14,514 bases of DNA. Source: Candidatus Heimdallarchaeota archaeon (lineage in GTDB: Archaea > Asgardarchaeota > Heimdallarchaeia > Heimdallarchaeales > Heimdallarchaeaceae). A program made the position numbers and the translations under genes. The notes under the pieces are model-generated. The model saw nothing but the letters and a program-made list of their open reading frames with translations, was not told the DNA's origin and ran no database searches. The stretch covers positions 1 through 14,514 of the forward strand of contig DAOVER010000064.1 of assembly GCA_030668875.1 (NCBI GenBank), given 5' to 3'. The stretch's first letter is position 1. The number at the start of each line of letters is the position of its first letter. Shown piece after piece: positions 1-12,781 of the stretch.

Positions 1-255
1 GAGGTAGGGATAAAAGTCATCTTGACGGAAGAAGATTATACCTCCAAATGTTCATTTCTAGATAACGAGGTGATCAAAAAACATCCCAATTATCTGGGAA
101 GAAGATTGAAAAGAGGTTTATTCAGAAGCAAAACCGGTATCCTGCTTAACGCTGATTGCAACTCAGCTGGCAATATCGGTAGAAAAGTATTCCCGCTGGT
201 CTTCACCTACGGGACAGTGGATGCCGTGAGTCATCTTCACTGTTGGACTGTTTAG
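1..255 (+). mobile_element. tnpB: 3' end of an IS200/IS605- or IS607-associated TnpB RNA-guided nuclease gene, truncated at the left window edge
   Basis: Frame 1 is open from base 1: EVGIKVILTEEDYTSKCSFLDNE...YLGRRLKRGLFRSKTGILLNADCNSAGNIGRK. The E-x-YTSK, G-x-R-x-x-RGLF and NADxNxAxNI (RuvC-III Asp) motifs are typical of TnpB C-termini. Confidence 0.9.
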
Positions 256-392: not shown

Positions 393-917
393 ATGTTGAT
401 TAGAGAAGCAACAACAGCTGATGCAGCTGGAATCGCCCATGTTAAGGTAAATTCATGGAAAACAACCTATAAAGGTCTATTTCCAGATGAAGTTCTAGAT
501 AATCTGTTAATTGAAGAAGAAACCGCAAGATGGGCTAGAAATCTTGATAGTATCTCAAAAACCTATACAAGCTTAGCTCTTGTTGCAGAAACTGATGACA
601 AGGAAATTGTAGGCATCGCTGCGGGAAGAAAAAATGATGACAGAATTTATCATTATGATTGTAACTTAAGCATAATCTATATTCTGAAGGAGTTTCAGAG
701 AAAGAAATTGGGGAAAAGATTAACTGAACAGATTGTAGATTTCTTCATTGAAAAGCGTTTTAAATCAATGATAGTCTGGATTTTGAAAGGAAATCCTAGT
801 TGCTTATTTTATGAAAAATTAGGTGGAATACCAAAAGAAACACAACGAGTTGAGAGATGGGGCATTGTATACGAAGAGATAGGTTATACGTGGGAAGACA
901 TAACAAAGATTTTCTGA
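393..917 (+). CDS. GNAT family N-acetyltransferase
   Basis: N-terminus IREAT.ADA.GIA.V.V.SWKTTYKG; motif A IYILKEFQRKKLGKRL; motif B VWILKGNPSCLFYEKLGG. Confidence 0.92.
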   Translation: MLIREATTADAAGIAHVKVNSWKTTYKGLFPDEVLDNLLIEEETARWARNLDSISKTYTSLALVAETDDKEIVGIAAGRKNDDRIYHYDCNLSIIYILKEFQRKKLGKRLTEQIVDFFIEKRFKSMIVWILKGNPSCLFYEKLGGIPKETQRVERWGIVYEEIGYTWEDITKIF

Positions 918-930
918 AACGTTTCTTTAA

Positions 931-1131
931 CTATTTTTTTCGATAGAGAATGTATTTGACAGGAACAATATGTCCTTTATTATAATGGTCTAATACTGCA
1001 TCTAATTCCTTCAGAAGATAATGATCGTTTATGCAGAATAAAGCAGCTGTTTCTGAGATGTCAAACCAAGTGTCTCCATCTACACTACACTCGGCAATTT
1101 CATGTTGTTCAGTAAAAAGTTCGCTCATCAT
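931..1131 (-). CDS. Small hypothetical protein (65-66 aa)
   Basis: ATG-initiated ORF that fills the gap between the GNAT and gelsolin genes and has protein-like composition. No family confidently recognised. Confidence 0.5.
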   Translation of the reverse strand: MMSELFTEQHEIAECSVDGDTWFDISETAALFCINDHYLLKELDAVLDHYNKGHIVPVKYILYRKK

Positions 1132-1250: not shown

Positions 1251-1943
1251 TCATTTTTTCCAGAACTGCCACCTTTTTTTAGCTGAAGATCCTTTTTTAT
1301 CTTCTACTCTGCTAACTGTTTTCCTTAATTCTAGAATACCATCCCTTAGTCCCAATTTATAGATAAGCTCGCGAAAACCATCAGGTTCATTTTCTTCTTC
1401 AATCACATAAATGATTGGAAATCTTTTTCTCTTTACTTCTAGCTGTCTAGTGATTCTGCCGGCTTCATACTTCTCCTTAACTTGACTATCTTTACCAATC
1501 CAAACATAAAGTATGTTATAAGCATCCAGAACAAAAGCATCATCTGATTGAAAGCGTTTGTGTTCAATAGGAAGTTCAGAAACTATTATCTCTCCTTCAT
1601 CATTCTCCTTAATCTGAAGCAATCTGAAATCTTTCTCGTACTTTGTGTCAATTGATTTGAGAAATCCTAAAGTATCTCCTTCAACAACTTCAAAATCAAT
1701 CTGTTCATTAAACTCTACAGGTTCTAAACCTTGATTGATAGTTTCAATTTTCAGTTCATTGTTTTGAATTTCAATCTTCTTTGCTCCCCAAGAACCTATA
1801 AATTTCTCATCAGCAAAAGATTTGGAACCTAACCATATCCAGAGAATGCTTTCTGTTTCAATAACATAAACGTCACCATTAAGAAACTGATACGGTTCCG
1901 TGATTGGAATCAGTTCATTTCCTACAATATGAAATACATTCAT
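1251..1943 (-). CDS. Two-domain gelsolin-family protein (Asgard 2DGel-like actin regulator); probable start ATG 1943, ORF open from 2015
   Basis: Two gelsolin repeats: FLNGDVYVIETESILWIWLGSKSFADEK and FQSDDAFVLDAYNILYVWIGKDSQVKEK...EENEPDGF. The C-terminal tail contains LRKT and KKRWQFWKK. Confidence 0.9.
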   Translation of the reverse strand: MNVFHIVGNELIPITEPYQFLNGDVYVIETESILWIWLGSKSFADEKFIGSWGAKKIEIQNNELKIETINQGLEPVEFNEQIDFEVVEGDTLGFLKSIDTKYEKDFRLLQIKENDEGEIIVSELPIEHKRFQSDDAFVLDAYNILYVWIGKDSQVKEKYEAGRITRQLEVKRKRFPIIYVIEEENEPDGFRELIYKLGLRDGILELRKTVSRVEDKKGSSAKKRWQFWKK

Positions 1944-2090
1944 AGATAGTAAAAGTAATCCTTTGTTAAAACAGTTTTCCCAATAGTCCCTCGTGTTTGG
2001 GTTGATAGTTTGCAAAGTCTTTTATATTTCCATTAGGTGTTCAGATATTGTAAATATATAGTGAATTATTTCATTATATTTCAAGCATTA

Positions 2091-2624
2091 ATGGTGATAA
2101 AAATTAGAAAACAAAGAATTATAAAAGACTATGAAGCTCTGAGAAAATTACATAAAGAAGGAATCGTTGCGCAAGTAAAAACATTCCCTAAAGGTAAGAA
2201 ATCCATGGATCATCTAGCTGTTGGGTTCACTGCTCCTAAGGGGACCCCTTATGCTGGAGGTAAATATAAATTAGAGATTTTCTTTGGTCCAAATTATCCT
2301 TACAAACCTCCCTTTGTAAGACTTCACACACCTATTTGGCATCCTAATTTCTGGCCTAATCCAAAAGAATATCCAAAGAAGAGAAATATTTGTCTTGCTC
2401 TTGTAGATAATGATTTGGTTGGTAAACACGATGGTTGGTCTCCATCTAAAAGTATCACTACTGTCATTCACTCAATTCTTGCTATGTTTAACGTTGAAGG
2501 AGCGTACGTAAATCCTAAGGATGTATTTAACAAAGAAGCTGCTTTGGAATTTTTAAATAATAAAAAGAAATTCATTAAAAAAGCAAATACAATCAATAAG
2601 AAGTATGCAAAATCGTATTGGTAA
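2091..2624 (+). CDS. Ubiquitin-conjugating enzyme E2 (UBC fold); probable start ATG 2091
   Basis: Helix 1 RKQRIIKDY; PKGTPYAGGKYKLEIFFGPNYPYKPPFVRLHTPIWHPN; catalytic Cys in NICL (TGT 2391-2393); WSPSKSITTVIHSI; N.EAA...NKKKF. Confidence 0.95.
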   Translation: MVIKIRKQRIIKDYEALRKLHKEGIVAQVKTFPKGKKSMDHLAVGFTAPKGTPYAGGKYKLEIFFGPNYPYKPPFVRLHTPIWHPNFWPNPKEYPKKRNICLALVDNDLVGKHDGWSPSKSITTVIHSILAMFNVEGAYVNPKDVFNKEAALEFLNNKKKFIKKANTINKKYAKSYW

Positions 2625-3379
2625 TACTAGAATTAGATCTATCTGATGTGAAAATTATGGAAGATGAAGATAACAATTATCCTGTTGAATATAAAAAACT
2701 CCTTGAGAAAATCGAAGCAATTGAAAAAACTCTAGAATTGTTTAAAGTTGATGAAATTGTTGAGGATGTTGAAAAGGAAATTAAAGAAATTAGTGAGGAA
2801 ACCATTTCTGAAGATATTCTTCAGATCAAACCTATTTCAGAGATTGTAATAAAACCTAAAGCTTATCTAAAACTTGCAAAACATGCCTTAACCTATGCAA
2901 ATGATGCAATCCCTAAGAAGAAATGGGTTGAAGTAATAGGATTGCTTACAGGAAATATTAGGGGAGAAGAAACACCATTAGAACAAGTTGTTGTCGAGGA
3001 CTATTGGCCTGTAGATCAGGGTGATGCTGTGAGTGTAGAAATTGTTGATCAAAATATATTTACAGAAATCTTCCATAAAAAGAGAAACGAGCATTTTATA
3101 ATCGGTTGGGCTCATTCCCATCCAAGCTATACACCATTTCTGAGTGGTGATGATTATAGTACACATCTAAGATATCAAACATTTTGGAATAAATCTATAG
3201 CTCTTGTAATAGATCCTTTGATGCTCTCCCCAAAGGATTATGGAATTGGTGTATTTCGCATACATCAAGATAAACAAAAATATTACCAACTATCTGTTGA
3301 AGTTGAAGGAATGAGTAGTGAAGCGTGTTATGAGTCCATAAACACTTTTATGAAAAATCAAACCGATAATTCTAACTAG
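2618..3379 (+). CDS. JAMM/MPN+ metalloprotease (Rpn11/CSN5-like) with an acidic N-terminal coiled-coil extension; start is TTG 2618 or ATG 2657
   Basis: AYLKLAKHA...EVIGLLTG (Glu at 2930). Complete H-x-H-x7-S-x2-D motif in GWAHSHPSYTPFLSGDD (3113-3154), followed by IALVIDP. Confidence 0.93.
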   Translation: MVILELDLSDVKIMEDEDNNYPVEYKKLLEKIEAIEKTLELFKVDEIVEDVEKEIKEISEETISEDILQIKPISEIVIKPKAYLKLAKHALTYANDAIPKKKWVEVIGLLTGNIRGEETPLEQVVVEDYWPVDQGDAVSVEIVDQNIFTEIFHKKRNEHFIIGWAHSHPSYTPFLSGDDYSTHLRYQTFWNKSIALVIDPLMLSPKDYGIGVFRIHQDKQKYYQLSVEVEGMSSEACYESINTFMKNQTDNSN

Positions 3380-3402
3380 AAAATATACGAGTTGTATTTT
3401 AA

Positions 3403-4515
3403 TTGGATTTAAATGATTTCAAAACCTATCTGGCAATCGGGATTGTTGGTTTAGTTGTTGGAATACTTTATCTAATTCTCCAAGATGATTTATCTAAAAC
3501 GTTAACTATTTTCTTCATAGCTCTGTACATTATTGTTTCATTAAGATATATTTTGGAAAGGAGACACTATAAGAAACACAAAGCGATTCTTGCTAGTACT
3601 CAATTCTTGCTCCTCCCTTTTAGCATTGTTTTGATGGGCAACTATATCTCTCCTCTAGTATACGGTTTGTTCACAATAACTATTGACATTTCTGGTGGAA
3701 ATACGATACAGATGTTCTTCAATTTTGTTTCTCTGTCTCTTATTATCCCAGTTATAATTTTAACTTTTCACTTTAATAATTACTACTCAAGAAAATGGCC
3801 AGCAATAGCTATTAGAAGAAAAGTGAAGAGAAGAAGAAGTATTCCTTTAATAATTCATAGTGTTTTCATTTTCACAATTCTATTAGGATTTTTTATAAAC
3901 GGGCAAATTGATCTAGTTAGTCTTATTTTCGCAATTATATTCTTGATTTTTATTTTTAGATATTTCATATTTGTTAGATTGATAAAATCAGAAAGACGTA
4001 CAGTAATAATGTCTAGTAGTTCTCCTAGCAGACAATCTACTAGGGCAAGAACTTCATCAACAACAAGTCGAAGGTCTTCTTCTCAAACTTCCAGGAGCAG
4101 ACAAATATCCTCTTCAACAAGAACTAGAACAGTTCAGTCAGCTTCTAGAGCTAAAAGAAGTAGTGCTAGGATTGATTCTGGTATTGAAATAACAAACAGA
4201 AAGAAAACTAAGAAACCCACAAAAACCATTAAGACTAAAACTACAGTTCGTGATTTCTTCCCAAATGGTAAGGCAAGTAAAGAAGAAGTGAAATGCATTA
4301 TTTGTTTTATGGATTTTGAGAAGAAGGATACAAGAAAAGTAATCCTCTGCCCTCATTGTAAGTATCCAGCTCATGAAGATGAATTTAGAAGTTGGTACCA
4401 AAATTCAAAATTCTGTGCAAGATGTAATAAGCCAATTTCAGCCTCATATGTAAGAAACCCTAAATACAGAATCACAACAAAAATCTATATTGAAAAAGTA
4501 ATTGACAAATTATAA
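3403..4515 (+). CDS. Polytopic membrane protein with a Ser/Arg-rich linker and a C-terminal RING-like zinc finger (putative membrane E3 ligase)
   Basis: About 5-6 hydrophobic segments in aa 1-192 (judged by eye), then a low-complexity S/R/T linker, then C-x2-C-x14-C-x2-C-x4-H-x2-E-x3-W-x6-C-x2-C (4294-4425). It lies in an operon with the E2 and JAMM genes. TTG start. Confidence 0.85.
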   Translation: MDLNDFKTYLAIGIVGLVVGILYLILQDDLSKTLTIFFIALYIIVSLRYILERRHYKKHKAILASTQFLLLPFSIVLMGNYISPLVYGLFTITIDISGGNTIQMFFNFVSLSLIIPVIILTFHFNNYYSRKWPAIAIRRKVKRRRSIPLIIHSVFIFTILLGFFINGQIDLVSLIFAIIFLIFIFRYFIFVRLIKSERRTVIMSSSSPSRQSTRARTSSTTSRRSSSQTSRSRQISSSTRTRTVQSASRAKRSSARIDSGIEITNRKKTKKPTKTIKTKTTVRDFFPNGKASKEEVKCIICFMDFEKKDTRKVILCPHCKYPAHEDEFRSWYQNSKFCARCNKPISASYVRNPKYRITTKIYIEKVIDKL

Positions 4516-4597
4516 AAAGCATTAAGTCTTATTATGTCAAGAGTGCAGAAAACCAACTATTAAATATGTCTCACTTAAAATACACTAAGGTCTGAAA

Positions 4598-5176
4598 ATG
4601 GGTACTTTGGCACATATAACTGGATCATTCATAACATCGTTATCCTTAGTCGGTGTTTCTATATACTACTTTATCGAAGGAAATGTTGACTTAGGCAAAT
4701 TTTTCATTTTCTTATCCATATATGTCTTTATTACCTTATTTTACATAATTCGAAGTTTATTCTATTTAAAACATAAAGCCACTTTCAACGAATTCATTTA
4801 TGTTTTTATTTTACCAATTGTTCCCGTTTTAATATTGCTGGCTCAAATGCTCTTTGATGTAAATCACTTTGGTACAGTTACTATTAGCGGATTTCCTGAT
4901 GAAAGTTTCAGGGAGGTCAATGCTGTTGATTTTCTTCTATTACCTTATTATCTATATAGTACATTTTTACTCTTTAGAACCTTCATTAGATATCCATTCA
5001 TTAGATTTAGAAGTACAAGCGAAAAAGGGATGAATCCTAAATTTGCCGGTGTTTTACTAATGTTAATTATCCCCGTCATCTATATTGTTACATCAGTAAC
5101 ATCTTTCGAAAATTTCTTCCTACTAATTTCTGGAATAATTTATCTCTACTCAGCCATTATGGCTATATTTGTATGA
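4598..5176 (+). CDS. Polytopic membrane protein, RING-less paralog of the upstream E3 membrane domain
   Basis: About 6 hydrophobic segments. Colinear matches with the 3403 protein: DLSK/DLGK, Y..KHKA, LP, TI.ISG/TVTISG, P.I..R and terminal IFV. Confidence 0.8.
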   Translation: MGTLAHITGSFITSLSLVGVSIYYFIEGNVDLGKFFIFLSIYVFITLFYIIRSLFYLKHKATFNEFIYVFILPIVPVLILLAQMLFDVNHFGTVTISGFPDESFREVNAVDFLLLPYYLYSTFLLFRTFIRYPFIRFRSTSEKGMNPKFAGVLLMLIIPVIYIVTSVTSFENFFLLISGIIYLYSAIMAIFV

Positions 5177-5194
5177 GTAATGTTTAACATCTTC

Positions 5195-5854
5195 TTAACT
5201 TCTTTTTTGCCTTGGTTTCTTGGTTTGTTTAGGATACTTTTGGCTTGGAACTTTATGTTTAGGTATCTTTTGTTTAGGTATTTTATCCTTTTTTACTTCC
5301 TCTATCTTTGATGTTGCAGGAGCTTCTTTTGTTTTCTTTTCTCTTCTTTCTTCTTTTGGTAATGAACGAGAATATGCTTCTGTAATCTCTTTGAATTTCT
5401 CTCGATCATCAGAAGGAGGTGTTTCTTCTCTCTTTTTCTTCTCTTCTTTCTTTAGTGCTTTAGAATCTATAGAGTCTATTTCTTTATATTTCTCTCTTCT
5501 AGGTGGAAGAGACTCCCTTTTCTTTGGTTTAGATTTTTCTTCTTGTGGAATGTAATTAGGTGATTTTGTACTTGAGAAAGTGTCTTGTTTAGGGATTTTA
5601 TCTTTAGGTATCTTTTGTTTTGGAATCCCTTTATTTCTTCCTGATTCTCGACTGTCTCTAAACTGTGATCTTACAGGTTTTGTTTCTGTTTTTCGAGCTT
5701 TTCTTTTTTCAGGAGGAAAAAAATCTTCATCTTTAATCTGCTGTTTAGGGATTTTATCTTTAGGTAATTTGTGCTTTGGGATTTTCGAATCGTATGGAAA
5801 TTTTTGCTTGGGAATTTTGTTTGAAATGCTTTTTTTTCTGTTTCTTTTACCCAT
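5195..5854 (-). CDS. Lys/Glu/Pro-rich, probably disordered protein with K-(hydrophobic)-P-K-x pentapeptide repeats
   Basis: 219-aa ORF starting at ATG, with an upstream AGGTG Shine-Dalgarno-like motif. About 12 KIPKQ-like units occur in three clusters. Confidence 0.75.
   Translation of the reverse strand: MGKRNRKKSISNKIPKQKFPYDSKIPKHKLPKDKIPKQQIKDEDFFPPEKRKARKTETKPVRSQFRDSRESGRNKGIPKQKIPKDKIPKQDTFSSTKSPNYIPQEEKSKPKKRESLPPRREKYKEIDSIDSKALKKEEKKKREETPPSDDREKFKEITEAYSRSLPKEERREKKTKEAPATSKIEEVKKDKIPKQKIPKHKVPSQKYPKQTKKPRQKRS
5586..5766. repeat. Exact 25-bp direct repeat TGTTTAGGGATTTTATCTTTAGGTA (5586-5610 and 5742-5766); degenerate copies near 5222-5290
   Basis: Read directly from the sequence. 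It encodes PKDKIPKQ in the minus-strand protein. Confidence 0.9.
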
Positions 5855-6109
5855 GTGTAAGTCACACCTATTCTAGCCTTTCATGTTTTTCATGATTTTT
5901 GAACGTTTTCAATTTTCATCCTTGTAATTAACATAAGTTACTTGGTTTGAAAACTTATCTAAACCCCAAATTAGTGATAATTATATTTTTGATAAAGATT
6001 TTAGGTTTATTTAAGTTTTTAAATAAGAATAGTTATGTTAAACTATAGGTAATTTTTTAATAAATATGTTGGACTATATTATTTGTATACTAACAAAGGA
6101 TTGAAAAAA

Positions 6110-6469
6110 ATGAGCGAAGAATTTGAAGAAATTTCTTTTGACGAAGAAAAAGAAGAAGAAGAGGTTGTAGAAACCGAAATCAAATCTAAAACTCCTGACA
6201 AGACTAAAACTCCTGCAGGTAAGAAAATAAGTGTATATTTCCAAAGCACAATTGGACCAAGTCCAAAACAAGAAAAACTTGTTGTAGCAACTGATGCTCC
6301 TATTAGTGATATAAAATATACAGTTAGTCAGATCTTTGGGTTACCACCTGATGAATTCCATCTATCTCATGCTGGAAGAACATGTGACAATGACGATGTT
6401 CTTGAAGATTATGGGGTTGAAGATGGAGATACAGTTCTACTGATTCCAGTTTCAACAGCAGGTTGTTAA
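6110..6469 (+). CDS. Ubiquitin-like modifier precursor with an acidic N-terminal extension, ending ...STAG-C; probable start ATG 6110
   Basis: Ungapped manual alignment to ubiquitin residues 23-76: ISDIKYTVSQIFGLPPDEFHLSHAGRTCDNDDVLEDYGVEDGDTVLLIPVSTAG versus [54 protein letters not shown]. Lies next to the E1 gene. Confidence 0.92.
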   Translation: MSEEFEEISFDEEKEEEEVVETEIKSKTPDKTKTPAGKKISVYFQSTIGPSPKQEKLVVATDAPISDIKYTVSQIFGLPPDEFHLSHAGRTCDNDDVLEDYGVEDGDTVLLIPVSTAGC

Positions 6470-6494
6470 TACGAAGTTTAATACTTATAAATTA

Positions 6495-6521
6495 AGACTC
6501 AAATTGAGTCTCTTTATTTTT
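6495..6521 (+). terminator. Inverted repeat followed by a T-tract between the Ubl and E1 genes (terminator/attenuator or protein-binding site)
   Basis: AGACTCAA-A-TTGAGTCT is a perfect inverted repeat (6495-6511), followed by CTTTATTTTT. Confidence 0.45.
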
Positions 6522-6601
6522 CTACTGAAAACTACATTTAAATTTAAATAACACAGAATTTATCTTCAATAAACATATCTAAATGGAAAGAGTGCTATAA
6601 G

Positions 6602-7858
6602 ATGAACGCAAAAGACACAAAAAAATCTAATTTCTTCGATGAAACCCTTTCAAAAGATGAGAGAATAAGATTCGATAGACAACTTAGATTACCAGGATGG
6701 AATCAGAAAGCTTTGAAGGATTCAACAGTTTTAATCGTTGGAGTAGGAGGATTAGGAACAGAAACAGCAAAAAACTTAGCTATGGCTGGTGTGGGAACTA
6801 TTCATCTTATCGATTTAGATATTATTGAATATTCGAATCTGAATAGACAAATATTGTTCTCAGATGCAGATGAAGGAGATCCTAAAGCTAAAGTTGCAGC
6901 AAGAGCTCTAGAAAAGATAAACCCCTATAGTAAATACATTTGGCACCATTCCAATCTAGAAGATGTTGATCCAGAAGTCTATGCGACAGCTGATTTGTAT
7001 ATTTCTGGCTTAGATTCTGTTACAGCAAGGAATGAGCTAATACGAAGAGCGGTTCAGTTTAAGAAACCGATGATTGATGGAGGAACTGCAACATATTATG
7101 GTCATGTTTATACTTATTTACCAGGTAAAAATGCATGCCTTCAATGTGATCCACAACAAGAACGCGAAAGAGAATCTTTAGCAGCTTGCACACTTGTAGG
7201 AATACCAAGAAAGAAATCTCATTGTTTGTTGAAAGGACAACTATATTTTGAATCAAAGAACAATAGACCCCCCGATACGACTGTTTTGGAAGAAATGAAT
7301 CTTGTAATAAATTATGCAAATAATTTAGTGAAAGAGCATTTTCCATCTGAAAATGTATTTTCTTTAGATGAAGCTGTGAAAATGGTTGACCAGCACGACC
7401 CAACAATCATAAGTATTAATGCTGTAATGGCCTCTTTACAATCACAAGAAGCATTGAAACTTATGCACCATCTCAAAGGAATAGAACTAGGTACTGTAAA
7501 TCCTGAGTATGTTATTTACAATGGATTAGTAGGGAAATTCTTCTATATAGAAAAGCCACCAAATAAGAAATGTATGCTCTGTGGTAAAAATGCTACTGCA
7601 ATTGAAGAAGTAAAATTACCTGCAACTGCTACTATCGATGTTTTACTCTCAATTATTAAAAGTAGAGGGTATGATTATGATCCTGAATTTTTACCTTCAT
7701 TTTGGTTAATTGATAAAAAAGACCCTGTAGATGTAGAAATAGATTCAACTGTGAAAGAACAAGGGATACGAAACCATGAAACATTGTATGTTACAGGTCT
7801 TACGAATAAAGGTGAAGAAATCGATCTTAATGTTAGGATAATCCTGAATCAAGGCTAA
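6602..7858 (+). CDS. Ubiquitin-like activating enzyme E1 (UBA2/UBA3-type, with catalytic-Cys domain and probable C-terminal ubiquitin-fold domain)
   Basis: RFDRQLRL; Rossmann VGVGGLG; D..EYSNLNRQ; DGGT; zinc pairs CLQC (7136) and CMLC (7571); catalytic motif CTLVGIPRKKSHC (Cys 7187-7189); PTIISINAVMA; about 90-aa C-terminal extension. Confidence 0.95.
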   Translation: MNAKDTKKSNFFDETLSKDERIRFDRQLRLPGWNQKALKDSTVLIVGVGGLGTETAKNLAMAGVGTIHLIDLDIIEYSNLNRQILFSDADEGDPKAKVAARALEKINPYSKYIWHHSNLEDVDPEVYATADLYISGLDSVTARNELIRRAVQFKKPMIDGGTATYYGHVYTYLPGKNACLQCDPQQERERESLAACTLVGIPRKKSHCLLKGQLYFESKNNRPPDTTVLEEMNLVINYANNLVKEHFPSENVFSLDEAVKMVDQHDPTIISINAVMASLQSQEALKLMHHLKGIELGTVNPEYVIYNGLVGKFFYIEKPPNKKCMLCGKNATAIEEVKLPATATIDVLLSIIKSRGYDYDPEFLPSFWLIDKKDPVDVEIDSTVKEQGIRNHETLYVTGLTNKGEEIDLNVRIILNQG

Positions 7859-9416: not shown

Positions 9417-10220
9417 CTACCCTGTTATGGTAGTTAGAACTTCATTCTTTTTTTTTATATTCGGGTTTTGTAAAGCAAATTTTAGAGTTGTAAATAATGC
9501 TGCAACTCCTAATGTTCCAGTAATTGGATAAATTGACCAGATATCACCATAACTTAATAAAACAAAGTAAACACCCAACATGCTTGTAGTAATACCTATA
9601 AACATGGACCAAGACCATTAAAATGCTGAATCTATCTATGAAATTGTTGGATTTTTCATTACCAGATAAGTAACTATTGATAGAATCGCCCATACTCCAA
9701 ATCCAATAATTGGATAATATTGCCATTCTTCCCAACTACTAAACAGACCAAAGCCTAATGCGATCATGGTAAATGCAATCGTAAGAAAGAGAACTACAGT
9801 TCAAAGAGTTAGTATATACAAAGGTTTTCGCTGCCTGTCTTGTAAAGTGAAGTGCACTCCTACTGACCATAAAACTAGAAGAAAAGTTCCCAGTAAAGGC
9901 ATAGATTGAAAATCTTCCCACTGTCCTAAGCTAGTATAAGCAAATGCGATCATGCTAATAGTTGTAGCTAGAAACAGAAAGAAAAACCAAATTATAACAC
10001 TTATAGTAGGTCGAATATTCCTTTTTCTAAAGATAAAATAGAAACTAGTCATCAACACTATAAGAACTACCATTCCAAAGGATGGACTACCAAACCATTC
10101 TAAACCTGAAAAATCATTTAACAGAACTAATACAAATACAATTCCAATTATGCTTCCAATTATCCATGTCAAGATTGTTAATGCAAGTAGAAATCTTTGT
10201 TTTTCTTTCATAGAGGCCAT
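9417..10220 (-). pseudogene. Disrupted membrane protein with four ~59-62-aa repeats (about 8 TM segments); copy 1
   Basis: ORFs 9801-10220 and 9417-9605 are in the same frame, separated by TGA 9801-9803 (TGG/Trp in the paralog at 12371-12373), TAG 9636-9638 and TAA 9618-9620. The intervening translation continues the repeat pattern. Confidence 0.8.
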
Positions 10221-10271: not shown

Positions 10272-12092
10272 TCAATCTTGAGGAATAGTTATTTTGAAAA
10301 GTGTTTCCCCCTTAACTGATTGAAAGTTTATTTGCCATCCATGAGCTTCAATTATTTTTTTCACAATTGCAAGTCCAATGCCTTGACCTTTTTGATCTTT
10401 TCTTGTTGAATAGCCTATTTTAAATATCTTTTCTATTTCACTTTTTGGTATCATCTGTCCATCATTGATAATTAATATCTCTATTTTATCATCATAAACC
10501 TGTGTTTTTATTTCAATTCTACTAGGATTCCCATGAATAACAGCATTTTCGAGAATATTGCTGAAGACCTGAGAGAGTTTTTCGCTGTCACAACTAACTG
10601 TTGGTAAGTTATCATGAGCAAATTCTACTGATTCTGGTATTACTAATTTTACAATATCCTTTACTATAATATTCAGATTTACTTTATCTTTTTTCTCTAT
10701 TATTTCTCCTCTTTCAGCTAAGTATAGAGAACGATCAAGCAATTTTCTCAAATACTTAATTTTACTCTGTATTTTGTCTGTAATGTCAATCTTGGATTTC
10801 TCTCCATGAAGCTGCAAATATCCTTCCATCACGGTAAGATTATTCCTTAAATCATGAGCCATAAAATTGGAAAAATTACTAAGCTCTTCTCTTTGCTTTA
10901 GTAGTTCTTCTTCTATTTGCTTGTAAGCAGTGATATCCTCCAGTGCTAGAAGCACTCCAGTGGTCTCCTCTTCTTTATCCATTAATGGAATCATTTTATA
11001 TCTGTAGTGAGTTAATTTTCCCCATTTTGATGTATAAGGTAATTCCGAACTGAATTGTTCTTTATTCTTTATACATCTTACAATGTTTCCTGATATTCCT
11101 GCATTCTTTAAAAGTGGAAATGTTATCAGATTAATTGCCTTTGTTGATTCTTCAGAGGGTGAACCAAGAAATTTAAGAGCCACTTTATTTACATCTTCGA
11201 TATTTCCTTCTAAGTTACAAGTTACAATCCCAATAGGATTTTCTTGAAAAAGTGTTATATACCTTTGTTCACTTTCTAATAATGCTGTTTCATATTGTTT
11301 CAGTTTGGAGATATCAACTATGATTCCTCTTATTCCTATAGGTTTATCATCTTCCATAATAAGACTTGAAAATGCTAATGAAGGAATACATGTACCATCC
11401 TTTCTCATAATAGCAATCTCTAATGGAGGTTCATATTTTTCATCTATTAATCGATTAAAAGTTTTTGTGACAACCTCACGATTTTCCGGAACAACTACTT
11501 GTAAAGCATTCATTCCTTGTTTAACTTCTTCTAGGGAATATCCATATTCCTCAAAGAAGTAATTGTTGATGTAAGAAATTTTCATGTTCTTGTCAAGCTC
11601 AAAAACGATTTCTGGTAATAAATTAGCCAATTCTCGAAATTTCCTCTCACTTTTTCTTACATTATCCTCCATTTCCTTGTGGCTAATAACTCTTTGAATA
11701 ACATGATACAATTCACTATATTGACTCTGGGGATCTCCTCCTTTTTTTATGTAATAATCAGCGCCAAGATTTAATGCTTCAATCACTACTTCTTCTCTCC
11801 CTCTACCTGTAAAAATGATGAAAGGAATATCATAGTTCTTCTCCTTTAATTGACGAAGAAGATCAAGACCATTCATTTCTGGCATTTGATAATCTGCTAT
11901 AATAATATCGAAATTTGATGTATCTAATAAACTGAAAATTTGTTCTGGATTAGAGAGTGAATGAACTGTTACTAGCCCATTACTAAGTTCTTCTAAAAAA
12001 AGTTTAGTCAATTGGAGAAAATCTTTATCATCATCAACATATACTATTCTTATTTTTTTAGTATCAGAGATAATAAATTCTTCATCCTTCAT
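10272..12092 (-). CDS. Hybrid sensor histidine kinase (REC-PAS-PAS-HisKA-HATPase_c)
   Basis: REC: VYVDDD, IIADYQMPEMNG, IFTGRG, YYIKK. Two PAS-like segments. H-box MAHDLRNNL; N-box QVFSNILENA; D/G boxes INDG, F.IGYSTR, GQGIGLAIVKKIIEAHG. Confidence 0.95.
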   Translation of the reverse strand: MKDEEFIISDTKKIRIVYVDDDKDFLQLTKLFLEELSNGLVTVHSLSNPEQIFSLLDTSNFDIIIADYQMPEMNGLDLLRQLKEKNYDIPFIIFTGRGREEVVIEALNLGADYYIKKGGDPQSQYSELYHVIQRVISHKEMEDNVRKSERKFRELANLLPEIVFELDKNMKISYINNYFFEEYGYSLEEVKQGMNALQVVVPENREVVTKTFNRLIDEKYEPPLEIAIMRKDGTCIPSLAFSSLIMEDDKPIGIRGIIVDISKLKQYETALLESEQRYITLFQENPIGIVTCNLEGNIEDVNKVALKFLGSPSEESTKAINLITFPLLKNAGISGNIVRCIKNKEQFSSELPYTSKWGKLTHYRYKMIPLMDKEEETTGVLLALEDITAYKQIEEELLKQREELSNFSNFMAHDLRNNLTVMEGYLQLHGEKSKIDITDKIQSKIKYLRKLLDRSLYLAERGEIIEKKDKVNLNIIVKDIVKLVIPESVEFAHDNLPTVSCDSEKLSQVFSNILENAVIHGNPSRIEIKTQVYDDKIEILIINDGQMIPKSEIEKIFKIGYSTRKDQKGQGIGLAIVKKIIEAHGWQINFQSVKGETLFKITIPQD

Positions 12093-12259: not shown

Positions 12260-12781
12260 TTATTTTTCTTTTATATTTGAGTTTCTTAAAGTACATTTTA
12301 AAGTTGTAATTAGAGCTGCAAATCCTAATGCGAACATGGTAAATGCAATTATAAGAAATAAAACTGCAGTCCAGAGAGTTAGTATAAACAAAGGTTTTCG
12401 TTGTCTATCCTTCAAAGTGAAGTGTACTCCTACTGCCCATAGAACCATAAGAAATGTCCCCAGTAAAGGCATGGATTGAAAATTTTCCCATTGTCCTAAA
12501 CTAGCATAAGCTAATGCGATCATGCTAATAGTTGTAGCTAGAAACAGAAAGAAGAACCAAATCGTAACAATCATAGTTGGTTGAAGATTCCTATTTCTAA
12601 AGATAAGATAAAAACTAGTCATTAACACTATAAGAAAAACCATTCCAGAAGTTGGACTGCCAAACCACTCTAAACCTGAAAAATCATTGAATAATACAAA
12701 TGCAAACAAAATTCCAATTATGCTTCCTACTATCCAAGTCCAGATGGTAAATGCTAGTAACAACCTTTGTTTTTCTTTCAT
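12260..12781 (-). CDS. Membrane protein, paralog (copy 2) of 9417-10220 with an in-frame internal deletion
   Basis: Manual count gives 23 mismatches in 190 nt (12371-12560 versus 9801-9990, about 88% identity). The C-terminus ALGF|AALITTLKCTLRNSNIKEK joins two segments that are 246 bp apart in copy 1. Confidence 0.8.
   Translation of the reverse strand: MKEKQRLLLAFTIWTWIVGSIIGILFAFVLFNDFSGLEWFGSPTSGMVFLIVLMTSFYLIFRNRNLQPTMIVTIWFFFLFLATTISMIALAYASLGQWENFQSMPLLGTFLMVLWAVGVHFTLKDRQRKPLFILTLWTAVLFLIIAFTMFALGFAALITTLKCTLRNSNIKEK

What the first reader, a model, noticed from the sequence alone, without database searches (positions are those of the whole stretch)
1251..1340. Gelsolin C-terminal tail combines a WH2-like LRKT motif with a basic-aromatic KKRWQFWKK end
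Seen: after the second gelsolin domain the protein reads ...GILE-LRKT-VSRVEDKKGSSA-KKRWQFWKK-stop (LRKT at 1317-1328). Known: LKKT/LRKV is the actin-binding motif of WH2/thymosin domains, and short K/W/F-rich termini often bind membranes. Inference: this could be a membrane-tethered actin severing, capping or nucleating protein, that is, a cortical actin regulator in an archaeon.
Basis: partly seen in the sequence, partly recalled or inferred. Interest (0 to 1): 0.65.

Follow-up and report, generated by a model that had tools for sequence, protein, structure and literature searches.

The report
Heimdall gelsolin with portable anchor-like tail
This gene of a Heimdall-group Asgard archaeon encodes a known kind of calcium-regulated actin-cutting protein, and its short tail ends in a basic, tryptophan-rich peptide that also caps many unrelated bacterial and phage proteins, so the peptide is probably an address tag (most likely for the membrane) and not an actin-binding site.

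Summary
Window 1251-1943 (minus strand) encodes a 230-aa two-domain gelsolin (2DGel) that ends ...LRKT (1317-1328)...KKRWQFWKK-stop (1254-1280).

- **Closest relative.** The nearest solved structure is Heim2DGel (PDB 7WHF).
- **Tail conservation.** The tail is conserved in 25 of 29 other genomes of the same family (Heimdallarchaeaceae, by the names of the hits) and in 0 of 369 other Asgard genomes. The same genome holds a tail-less paralog.
- **LRKT.** The WH2 reading is weakly supported. The motif has no WH2 profile match and is predicted helical. Deeper orthologs lose its L and T. The invariant Asp five residues before it aligns with the Ca-binding Asp222 of Heim2DGel. The usual WH2-like motif sits between the domains (LKSI).
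- **Terminal peptide.** This is the more interesting part. K-W-W-Q-F-W-K-stop ends unrelated, mostly soluble proteins in at least 120 stretches of DNA from diverse bacteria (and a few archaea) and in 63 viral contigs, while two permuted versions gave 0 hits. One gelsolin subclade replaced it with other basic-hydrophobic ends.

I read the terminal peptide as an autonomous targeting tag, most likely a peripheral membrane anchor. This is untested. This scan found the same tail earlier on orthologs in other genomes. No searched paper describes it.

The parts
1251..1943 (-). Coding sequence of the tailed two-domain gelsolin (230 aa plus stop), starting at the ATG at 1943
   Evidence: ORF list and translation. 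PF00626 matches twice. PDB 7whf_G scores E=1.7e-44 and aligns from Met1. Orthologs of 225-240 aa.
1680..1943 (-). Gelsolin domain D1 (about residues 1-88), including the GDVYV type-II Ca-site signature at 1863-1877
   Evidence: AF2 secondary structure, alignment with Heim2DGel and Thor 2DGel3, invariant G23/D24.
1650..1661 (-). Central WH2-like motif of the D1-D2 linker, LKSI (LKHF in most orthologs, LKHV in Heim2DGel)
   Evidence: L95 is invariant in A1. It aligns with the FLKHV stretch of 7whf_G. The motif is described in PMC9433394. pLDDT is below 50, as expected for a segment that orders on actin.
1347..1628 (-). Gelsolin domain D2 (about residues 106-199), including the SDDAFV Ca-site signature at 1530-1547
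   Evidence: Pfam best stretch at residues 145-215 of the 254-aa ORF, AF2 model, hhalign of D1 against D2 with probability 96.7%.
1341..1343 (-). Invariant Asp201, positional equivalent of the Ca-binding Asp222 in the ordered part of the Heim2DGel tail. The tail-less paralog ends three residues after it.
   Evidence: HMMER alignment places query D225 (254-aa numbering) against chain D222. Fig. 1c legend of PMC9433394. Invariant in A1. The paralog alignment ends here.
1317..1328 (-). LRKT (residues 206-209), inside the predicted extension of the D2 C-terminal helix. R207 is invariant; L and T are kept only in closer orthologs.
1281..1316 (-). Lys/Glu/Ser-rich spacer (residues 210-221), variable in length and sequence among orthologs; AF2 gives low confidence from residue 213 on
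   Evidence: Gapped, variable columns in A1. pLDDT is below 50 from residue 213 on.
1254..1280 (-). Terminal basic-aromatic peptide KKRWQFWKK, a local variant of the portable C-terminal tag [KR]KWW[QE]FWK
   Evidence: Conserved in orthologs. The tag ends unrelated bacterial and phage proteins. Permuted versions gave 0 hits.

Best explanation
The gene encodes a Heimdallarchaeaceae two-domain gelsolin. By homology with Heim2DGel it should sever, cap or sequester actin under calcium control, using D1, the central WH2-like LKSI motif and D2. The 29-residue extension has three parts. (i) A continuation of the D2 C-terminal helix starts just after the conserved Ca-binding Asp and contains LRKT. I infer that it belongs to the D2 calcium/actin surface and is not an independent WH2 site. 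(ii) A floppy charged spacer follows. (iii) The protein ends in the octapeptide-type tag KK[W/R]WQFWK. That tag is an autonomous, portable C-terminal address label, also used by many unrelated soluble proteins of bacteria and phages. Its most likely target is the cytoplasmic face of the membrane, with Trp/Phe sitting in the interface and Lys/Arg on anionic head groups. One of the genome's two gelsolin paralogs would then act at the cell cortex. Shown here: gene, fold, conservation, lineage restriction, portability of the tag. Inferred: actin activity, by homology. Inferred and untested: membrane binding.
For: **Family.** Pfam finds two gelsolin repeats. The best solved relatives are Heim2DGel at E=1.7e-44 and Thor and Loki 2DGels. 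The genome holds two actins that are about 60% identical to eukaryotic actin.

**Tail conservation and lineage.** The tail profile hits 25 of 29 other genomes of the same family plus the window's own, and 0 of 369 other Asgard genomes. In 1.84 billion representative proteins it finds only 2DGels and their fragments besides repeat-protein noise.

**Paralogs.** The genome also has a 204-aa tail-less 2DGel. It is 53% identical with no gaps, and the alignment stops at D201. The tail is therefore the main difference between the two.

**Flexibility.** pLDDT is below 50 from residue 213 on, and the spacer varies in length.

**Portability.** I calculate about 0.3 hits expected by chance in the genome collection, assuming uniform base composition. 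The hits are in frame at ORF ends with all three stop codons. The residue before the pattern, which the search left free, is K or R in 135 of 148. Carriers include TPR, PP2C, MerR+DUF3967, retron-type RT, ankyrin, MORN, eCIS-core and DUF4241 proteins. Actin cannot be the tag's target in these proteins.

**Carriers are soluble.** Only 11 of 148 have a TM-like window, against 36% of ORFs in the window's genome.

**Functional replacement.** A gelsolin subclade nested inside the tagged clade swapped the tag for other basic-hydrophobic ends such as FLDSLKRKILSFLKKQK, GFLSFLKKK and KFFWFFTKK.

**Precedent.** OdinFtsZ1 binds liposomes through a terminal amphipathic helix (PMC12583498).
Against: - No lipid-binding data exist for this peptide anywhere in the searched literature.
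- The motif is order-specific. Two composition-matched permutations gave 0 viral hits against 63. The free position is Q or E in 59 of 71 cases. This looks more like recognition by a specific partner than generic interfacial binding.
- The Eisenberg helical moment of KKWWQFWK is unexceptional, at the 77th percentile of C-termini in this genome.
- The window's own variant has Arg in place of the first Trp. Its Wimley-White interfacial sum is about +0.5 kcal/mol before electrostatics.
- In Heim2DGel, removing its tail (which is not homologous to this one) did not change actin disassembly in cells (PMC9433394).
- Actin activity here rests on homology only.
Confidence: 0.5

Rival explanations
1. 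LRKT is a second, functional WH2-like actin-binding motif. D2 plus its following segment would repeat the D1 plus LKSI unit and hold a second actin, giving nucleating or sequestering activity.
For: L-R-K-T fits the four-residue rule L-basic-basic-T/V stated in PMC9433394. ELR[KRST]TV is kept in most orthologs above about 55% identity. It lies at the same distance (within one residue) from the EPxxF landmark of D2 as LKSI does from that of D1: D90-x4-L95-K96 against D201-x4-L206-R207. In Loki2DGel and Heim2DGel the first 10-20 tail residues do touch actin.
Against: No WH2 or thymosin profile hit even at E<=10. hhalign aligns D1 and D2 only up to EPxxFxxxI and does not extend into the linker or tail. 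AF2 predicts LRKT as helix (190-218), whereas the D1 equivalent is preceded by a beta-strand. Deep family members lose L and T but keep R207 and the end tag. 208-aa paralogs end ...EDKKLEKKK, so part of this basic helix end is older than the tail. The helix that a WH2 would need is part of the D2 fold.
Confidence: 0.2
2. The terminal tag is a sequence-specific docking peptide for a conserved macromolecule other than lipid, for example a chaperone or protease, nucleic acid, or self-association through an aromatic zipper. It would recruit or regulate the gelsolin through that partner.
For: Strict residue order: 63 hits against 0 and 0 for two permutations. Strong Q/E preference at the one polar core position. 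The helical amphipathic moment is ordinary. Some carriers are DNA-binding proteins or reverse transcriptases.
Against: The carriers span bacteria, archaea and phages, so few protein partners are shared by all. No conserved neighbouring gene was seen. The gelsolin subclade that lost the tag gained generic basic-hydrophobic ends and not another fixed motif. The carriers are depleted in membrane proteins, as expected for an anchor.
Confidence: 0.25
3. The tail is an autoinhibitory latch like the C-terminal helix of eukaryotic gelsolin. It would fold back onto an actin-binding surface when calcium is absent.
For: Eukaryotic gelsolin uses a C-terminal helix in this way (established knowledge). The tail starts at a Ca-binding Asp. 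Invariant D201, E205 and R207 could make calcium-sensitive contacts.
Against: AF2 shows no docking of the tail: it is a protruding helix followed by low-confidence residues. The tag works on unrelated proteins that have no gelsolin domains. The tail-less paralog and Thor 2DGel are calcium-regulated or complete without it.
Confidence: 0.08

Closest known systems
Heim2DGel of Heimdallarchaeota LC_3 (PDB 7WHF; Akil et al. 2022, PMC9433394)
   Same: Both have two gelsolin domains, a central WH2-like motif, conserved Ca-site signatures, and an extended D2 C-terminal helix with a Ca-binding Asp (Asp222 there, D201 here). It is the best sequence match (E=1.7e-44) and the best fold match.
   Different: Heim2DGel has a 68-residue charged tail with no detectable similarity to this one: the alignment stops at D201/G202. 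This protein has a 29-residue tail ending in the KKWWQFWK-type tag, and it lacks the D1/D2 insertions of Heim2DGel.
Tail-less 2DGels (Thor2DGel, PDB 7C2G; the 204-208-aa Heimdall 2DGels such as the paralog at G000 C23)
   Same: The two-domain core is the same. The paralog in this genome is 53% identical with no gaps.
   Different: They end at or a few residues after the conserved Asp. They have no spacer and no basic-aromatic end.
C-terminal membrane-targeting sequences of bacterial cytoskeletal proteins (MinD, FtsA), and the N-terminal amphipathic helix of OdinFtsZ1 (PMC12583498)
   Same: All are short terminal basic-hydrophobic peptides on a flexible leash attached to an otherwise soluble cytoskeletal protein. 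The alternative ends of one gelsolin subclade look like classical amphipathic membrane-targeting sequences.
   Different: KKWWQFWK is only 8 residues long, is Trp-dominated and has a fixed order. Its helical moment is ordinary. Membrane binding has not been shown. The MinD and FtsA comparison rests on my own knowledge and not on a test made here.
Pfam DUF3967 (PF13152), a 35-residue C-terminal module of MerR-type proteins in Firmicutes, function unknown
   Same: The last 11 profile positions match the KKWWQFWK end. A bacterial carrier found by the motif scan matches the whole profile (L077, E=1.5e-14).
   Different: The gelsolin tail shares only the terminal peptide. The match for an ortholog tail (E=0.069) is below the Pfam cut-off, and the window's own tail gives no match.
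WH2 / thymosin-beta actin-binding domains (PF02205, PF01290)
   Same: The tetrapeptide LRKT fits the LKKT-type core.
   Different: There is no profile match, no free amphipathic helix ahead of the motif, a helical prediction for the motif itself, and no conservation in deep orthologs.

Membership tests
Gelsolin superfamily (PF00626) | Gelsolin repeat profile match above the curated cut-off | tested here: met
   63.7 bits against a cut-off of 21, in two stretches.
Asgard two-domain gelsolin (2DGel) | Exactly two gelsolin domains, with solved 2DGels as nearest relatives | tested here: met
   7whf_G E=1.7e-44, 7c2g/7c2h about 1e-27, 7whg 6.5e-16. Foldseek top hits are the same entries. hhalign of D1 against D2 gives probability 96.7%.
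Asgard two-domain gelsolin (2DGel) | Central WH2-like motif (L, two basic or polar residues, T/V/I) between D1 and D2 | tested here: met
   LKSI at residues 95-98. L95 is invariant, and the motif aligns with the FLKHV stretch of Heim2DGel.
Asgard two-domain gelsolin (2DGel) | Calcium-dependent severing, capping or sequestering of actin | not testable with these tools
   Inferred from homology. Signature Asp/Glu positions (GDVYV, SDDAFV, D201) are conserved.
WH2 domain (PF02205) / thymosin-beta | Profile match to the WH2 or thymosin model | tested here: not met
   No such family at E<=10 for the window tail or for two ortholog tails. HMMER filters may drop very weak hits.
WH2 domain (PF02205) / thymosin-beta | LKKT-type core conserved among orthologs | tested here: inconclusive
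   LR[KRST]T[VIL] is kept in orthologs above about 55% identity. Deeper members that still carry the end tag replace it with QRKK, VRRK, VRTA or MRAE.
WH2 domain (PF02205) / thymosin-beta | Direct binding of the motif to the actin barbed-end face | not testable with these tools
Terminal membrane-targeting peptide (MinD/FtsA type) | Terminal position on a flexible linker of an otherwise soluble protein | tested here: met
   The tag occupies the last 9 residues. pLDDT is below 50 from residue 213 on. The spacer varies in length. The protein has no TM segment.
Terminal membrane-targeting peptide (MinD/FtsA type) | Amphipathic helix with a high hydrophobic moment | tested here: inconclusive
   KKWWQFWK has a moment of 0.69, the 77th percentile. 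The window's own end scores lower. Some alternative ends reach the 90th-96th percentile.
Terminal membrane-targeting peptide (MinD/FtsA type) | Binding to lipid bilayers | not testable with these tools
   No experiment or paper was found.
DUF3967 (PF13152) | Profile match above the cut-off (22 bits) | tested here: not met
   An ortholog tail scores 13.4 bits over profile positions 25-35 only. The window tail gives no hit.

The most novel reading that the evidence does not exclude
[KR]KWW[QE]FWK-COOH is a sequence-specific, cross-domain address tag used by bacteria, their phages and Heimdall archaea. Heimdallarchaeaceae attached it to one of two gelsolin paralogs, so that calcium-triggered actin severing or capping takes place at the membrane. 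That would be a minimal cortical actin regulator in the group of archaea closest to eukaryotes.
Probability: 0.35. Interest if true: 0.8.

Novelty: new variant of a known kind. Interest (0 to 1): 0.6.

Why it matters
How Asgard archaea couple their actin to the membrane is an open question. Published work calls the C-terminal extensions of 2DGels functionally unclear (PMC9433394; bioRxiv 10.1101/2025.11.30.690169). This family offers a clean natural experiment. Two paralogs in one genome differ essentially by a 29-residue tail, and the last eight residues of that tail form a portable tag. The membrane idea can be tested cheaply with liposome binding, GFP-tag localisation and tail swaps. Separately, the recurrence of one exact octapeptide at the ends of unrelated proteins across bacteria, phages and archaea is unexplained. 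It is absent from the literature searched and is caught only partly by a Pfam family of unknown function.

Tried and rejected
- **Complex prediction.** I submitted the tail (alignment A2) with the genome's own actin (alignment A3). It gives no information either way.
- **WH2 profile search.** Pfam scans of the tails at E<=10 gave nothing relevant.
- **Repeat homology of linker and tail.** hhalign did not extend beyond the domain core, so calling LRKT a paralogous copy of LKSI remains only a positional observation.
- **Hydrophobic moment.** The analysis did not discriminate.
- **The tail on other proteins.** I looked for it in the same genome and in other Asgard genomes. Outside the gelsolin there were only tiny spurious ORFs and one 101-aa Cys/His-rich protein.
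- **A functional link to the neighbouring ubiquitin-like gene cluster.** Rejected. A 91%-identical ortholog and a 59%-identical one both lie in other neighbourhoods.
- **A mobile-element artefact as the source of the recurrent peptide.** Rejected. Codons and stop codons differ among the hits.
- **Literature.** No paper holds 'WWQFW'. The one paper holding 'DUF3967' is a Bacillus genome report.

Full report
**1. The observation**

LRKT is encoded at 1317-1328, the last nine residues at 1254-1280 and the stop at 1251-1253. The listed ORF begins at a TTG. The real start is the ATG at 1943, giving 230 aa. The solved Heimdall gelsolin aligns from that Met, and the full-length orthologs that were not called with a longer N-terminus start MNVFH or MKVYH. 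Residue numbers below refer to the 230-aa protein.

**2. What the gene is**

- Pfam finds two gelsolin repeats (PF00626, E=1.5e-17).
- The closest solved proteins are the Asgard two-domain gelsolins: Heim2DGel 7WHF (E=1.7e-44), Thor 2DGel3 (7C2G and 7C2H, about 1e-27) and Loki 2DGel 7WHG.
- An AlphaFold2 model built on 54 orthologs (mean pLDDT 77) has two gelsolin domains, and Foldseek returns the same PDB entries first.
- Named homologs come from Candidatus Heimdallarchaeaceae.
- The genome (3.2 Mb, 92% complete) holds two actins about 60% identical to eukaryotic actins, one ARP-like protein, and a second 2DGel of 204 aa.
- The central WH2-like motif that Akil et al. describe between D1 and D2 (LRRV in Thor, LKHV in Heim, LVDV in Loki; PMC9433394) is present here as LKSI at residues 95-98. 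L95 is invariant.

**3. Anatomy and conservation of the tail**

In 54 orthologs (52-91% identical), D201 and R207 are invariant, and E205, F227 and K229 are kept in at least 90%. The consensus reads KDGVIELRxTV, then 8-16 Lys/Glu-rich residues of variable length, then KKWWQFWK at the end.

The HMMER alignment with 7whf_G places D201 opposite Asp222. The paper identifies Asp222 as a calcium-binding residue in the ten ordered tail residues, which extend the D2 C-terminal helix and form part of the D2/actin interface.

The same Asp is kept in the tail-less paralogs (...QKEDPKQ...AKEDKKLEKKK). The two paralogs of this genome align without gaps at 53% identity, and the alignment stops at D201. The lineage-specific tail proper is therefore residues 202-230.

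AF2 predicts one long helix over residues 190-218. pLDDT is about 72 around LRKT and below 50 from residue 213 on.

**4. Is LRKT a WH2-like site?**

In favour:
- It fits the L-basic-basic-T/V rule.
- It is kept in most orthologs.
- It lies at the same distance (within one residue) from the EPxxF landmark as LKSI does in D1.
- In Loki and Heim 2DGels the first 10-20 tail residues contact actin.

Against:
- No WH2 or thymosin profile match even at E<=10.
- Profile-profile alignment of D1+linker against D2+tail stops at the domain core.
- The motif is predicted helical, whereas a beta-strand precedes the D1 equivalent.
- The deeper family members that still carry the end tag read EQRKK, EVRRKP, AVRTAK, EMRAEE or ELRNDD here.
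- The 208-aa paralogs already end ...D-K-K-L-E-K-K-K, so a basic helix end after the Asp is older than the tail.

I rate an independent WH2-type function at about 0.2. I think this segment more likely belongs to the calcium/actin surface of D2.

**5. The terminal peptide**

*Distribution of the whole tail.* Within Asgard archaea the tail is a family-level trait. The tail profile hits 25 of 29 other genomes of the window's family plus the window's own genome, and 0 of 369 genomes of 32 other families. In 1.84 billion representative proteins it finds only 2DGels or their fragments, besides repeat-protein noise. No other ORF of this genome has such an end.

It also occurs in 63 viral contigs.
- I calculate about 0.3 chance hits for the genome collection, assuming uniform base composition.
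- All hits that end in a stop codon lie in frame at the end of an ORF. Codons vary and all three stop codons are used, so this is protein-level selection and not a mobile DNA end.
- The residue before the pattern, which the search left free, is K or R in 135 of 148 unique carriers.
- Carriers are unrelated: TPR, PP2C+TPR, CarboxypepD_reg-like, MerR+DUF3967, eCIS-core, HTH/excisionase-like, retron-type reverse transcriptase, ankyrin, MORN and DUF4241 proteins, small Cys-rich phage proteins, and many with no family.
- Only 11 of 148 have a TM-like hydrophobic window, against 36% of long ORFs in the window's genome.
- Pfam DUF3967, a 35-residue module of unknown function, ends in this peptide.
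- No paper in the searched library contains 'WWQFW'.

**6. What the tag does**

Because the tag sits on proteins of organisms that have no actin, actin is not its target. I favour a peripheral membrane anchor, for these reasons:
- It is terminal, on a floppy leash, and on soluble carriers.
- Trp, Phe and Lys are typical interfacial residues.
- Lipid bilayers are the one target shared by all these hosts.
- In the gelsolin tree built from the core only, a subclade nested inside the tagged clade replaced the tag with other basic-hydrophobic ends, some of them classical amphipathic sequences such as FLDSLKRKILSFLKKQK, GFLSFLKKK and KFFWFFTKK.
- An Asgard precedent exists in OdinFtsZ1, which binds liposomes through a terminal amphipathic helix.

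Three results count against a purely physico-chemical anchor:
- Two permutations of the same residues (KWFQWWK-stop and KQWFWWK-stop) have 0 viral hits against 63.
- The free core position is Q in 42 and E in 17 of 71 cases.
- The helical hydrophobic moment is ordinary.

The window's own variant (Arg for the first Trp; another ortholog, P0022, also reads KKRWQFWK) is a weaker hydrophobic anchor. A sequence-specific partner therefore remains a serious rival, at about 0.25.

**7. Evolution**

In the core-only tree the 43 tail-less proteins form one supported clade among tagged lineages. This fits an ancestral tagged gelsolin in Heimdallarchaeaceae, followed by duplication and tail loss. The root is only a midpoint root, so the direction of change is not shown.

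**8. Context**

The gene lies head-to-head with an E2-JAB-RING-Ubl-E1 cluster. A 91%-identical ortholog keeps the downstream 66-aa and GNAT genes but has an MFS transporter on the other side. A 59%-identical ortholog sits in yet another neighbourhood. The adjacency is therefore not conserved.

**9. Verdict**

The protein is a new variant of a known kind: a 2DGel with a short tail ending in a portable tag. The same tail was reported earlier in this scan on orthologs in other genomes. I re-tested the portability claim independently and added the permutation controls, the distribution across Asgard families, the paralog comparison and the Asp222 equivalence.

Noticed in passing
L020-L202 and L231-L289 (bacterial, archaeal and viral loci found by motif): The exact peptide [KR]KWWQFWK-stop ends unrelated proteins (TPR, PP2C, MerR+DUF3967, retron-type RT, ankyrin, small Cys-rich phage proteins) across many bacterial phyla and in phages. 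Two permuted versions gave 0 viral hits. Its target is unknown.
   Followed up: partly
window 1943-2091 and 2037-7858: The gelsolin gene is head-to-head with the E2-JAB-RING-Ubl-E1 cluster. The arrangement is absent from a 91%-identical ortholog locus (L290/L291, with an MFS transporter instead) and from L007, so it is probably a local rearrangement and not a functional coupling.
   Followed up: yes
G000 C23, L001:1141-1755 (+): A second 2DGel of 204 aa has no tail. It is 53% identical to the window protein with no gaps, ends three residues after the conserved Asp, and its central motif is LKHF.
   Followed up: yes
window 1-255 (+): An ORF open at its 5' end matches the Cas12f1-like/TnpB TNB domain weakly (PF07282, E=1.8e-4, below the cut-off). 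It is probably the C-terminal end of a TnpB-type gene cut by the contig end.
   Followed up: no
window 393-917 (+) and 931-1131 (-): A GNAT acetyltransferase and a 66-aa ORF with no family lie downstream of the gelsolin. Both are kept in the same order next to the ortholog in L290/L291.
   Followed up: partly
L228 (G329 C1:40817-40837, another Asgard family): A 101-aa Cys/His-rich protein ends in RKWWRFWK. It is the only plausible non-gelsolin carrier of the tag among 399 Asgard genomes.
   Followed up: no
window 9801-10220 (-) and 12260-12781 (-): Two paralogous small membrane proteins share N-termini (MxxMKEKQR-LLLAxTIxTWIxGSIIGI...) and flank a PAS/response-regulator histidine kinase gene (10272-12092, minus strand).
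   Followed up: no
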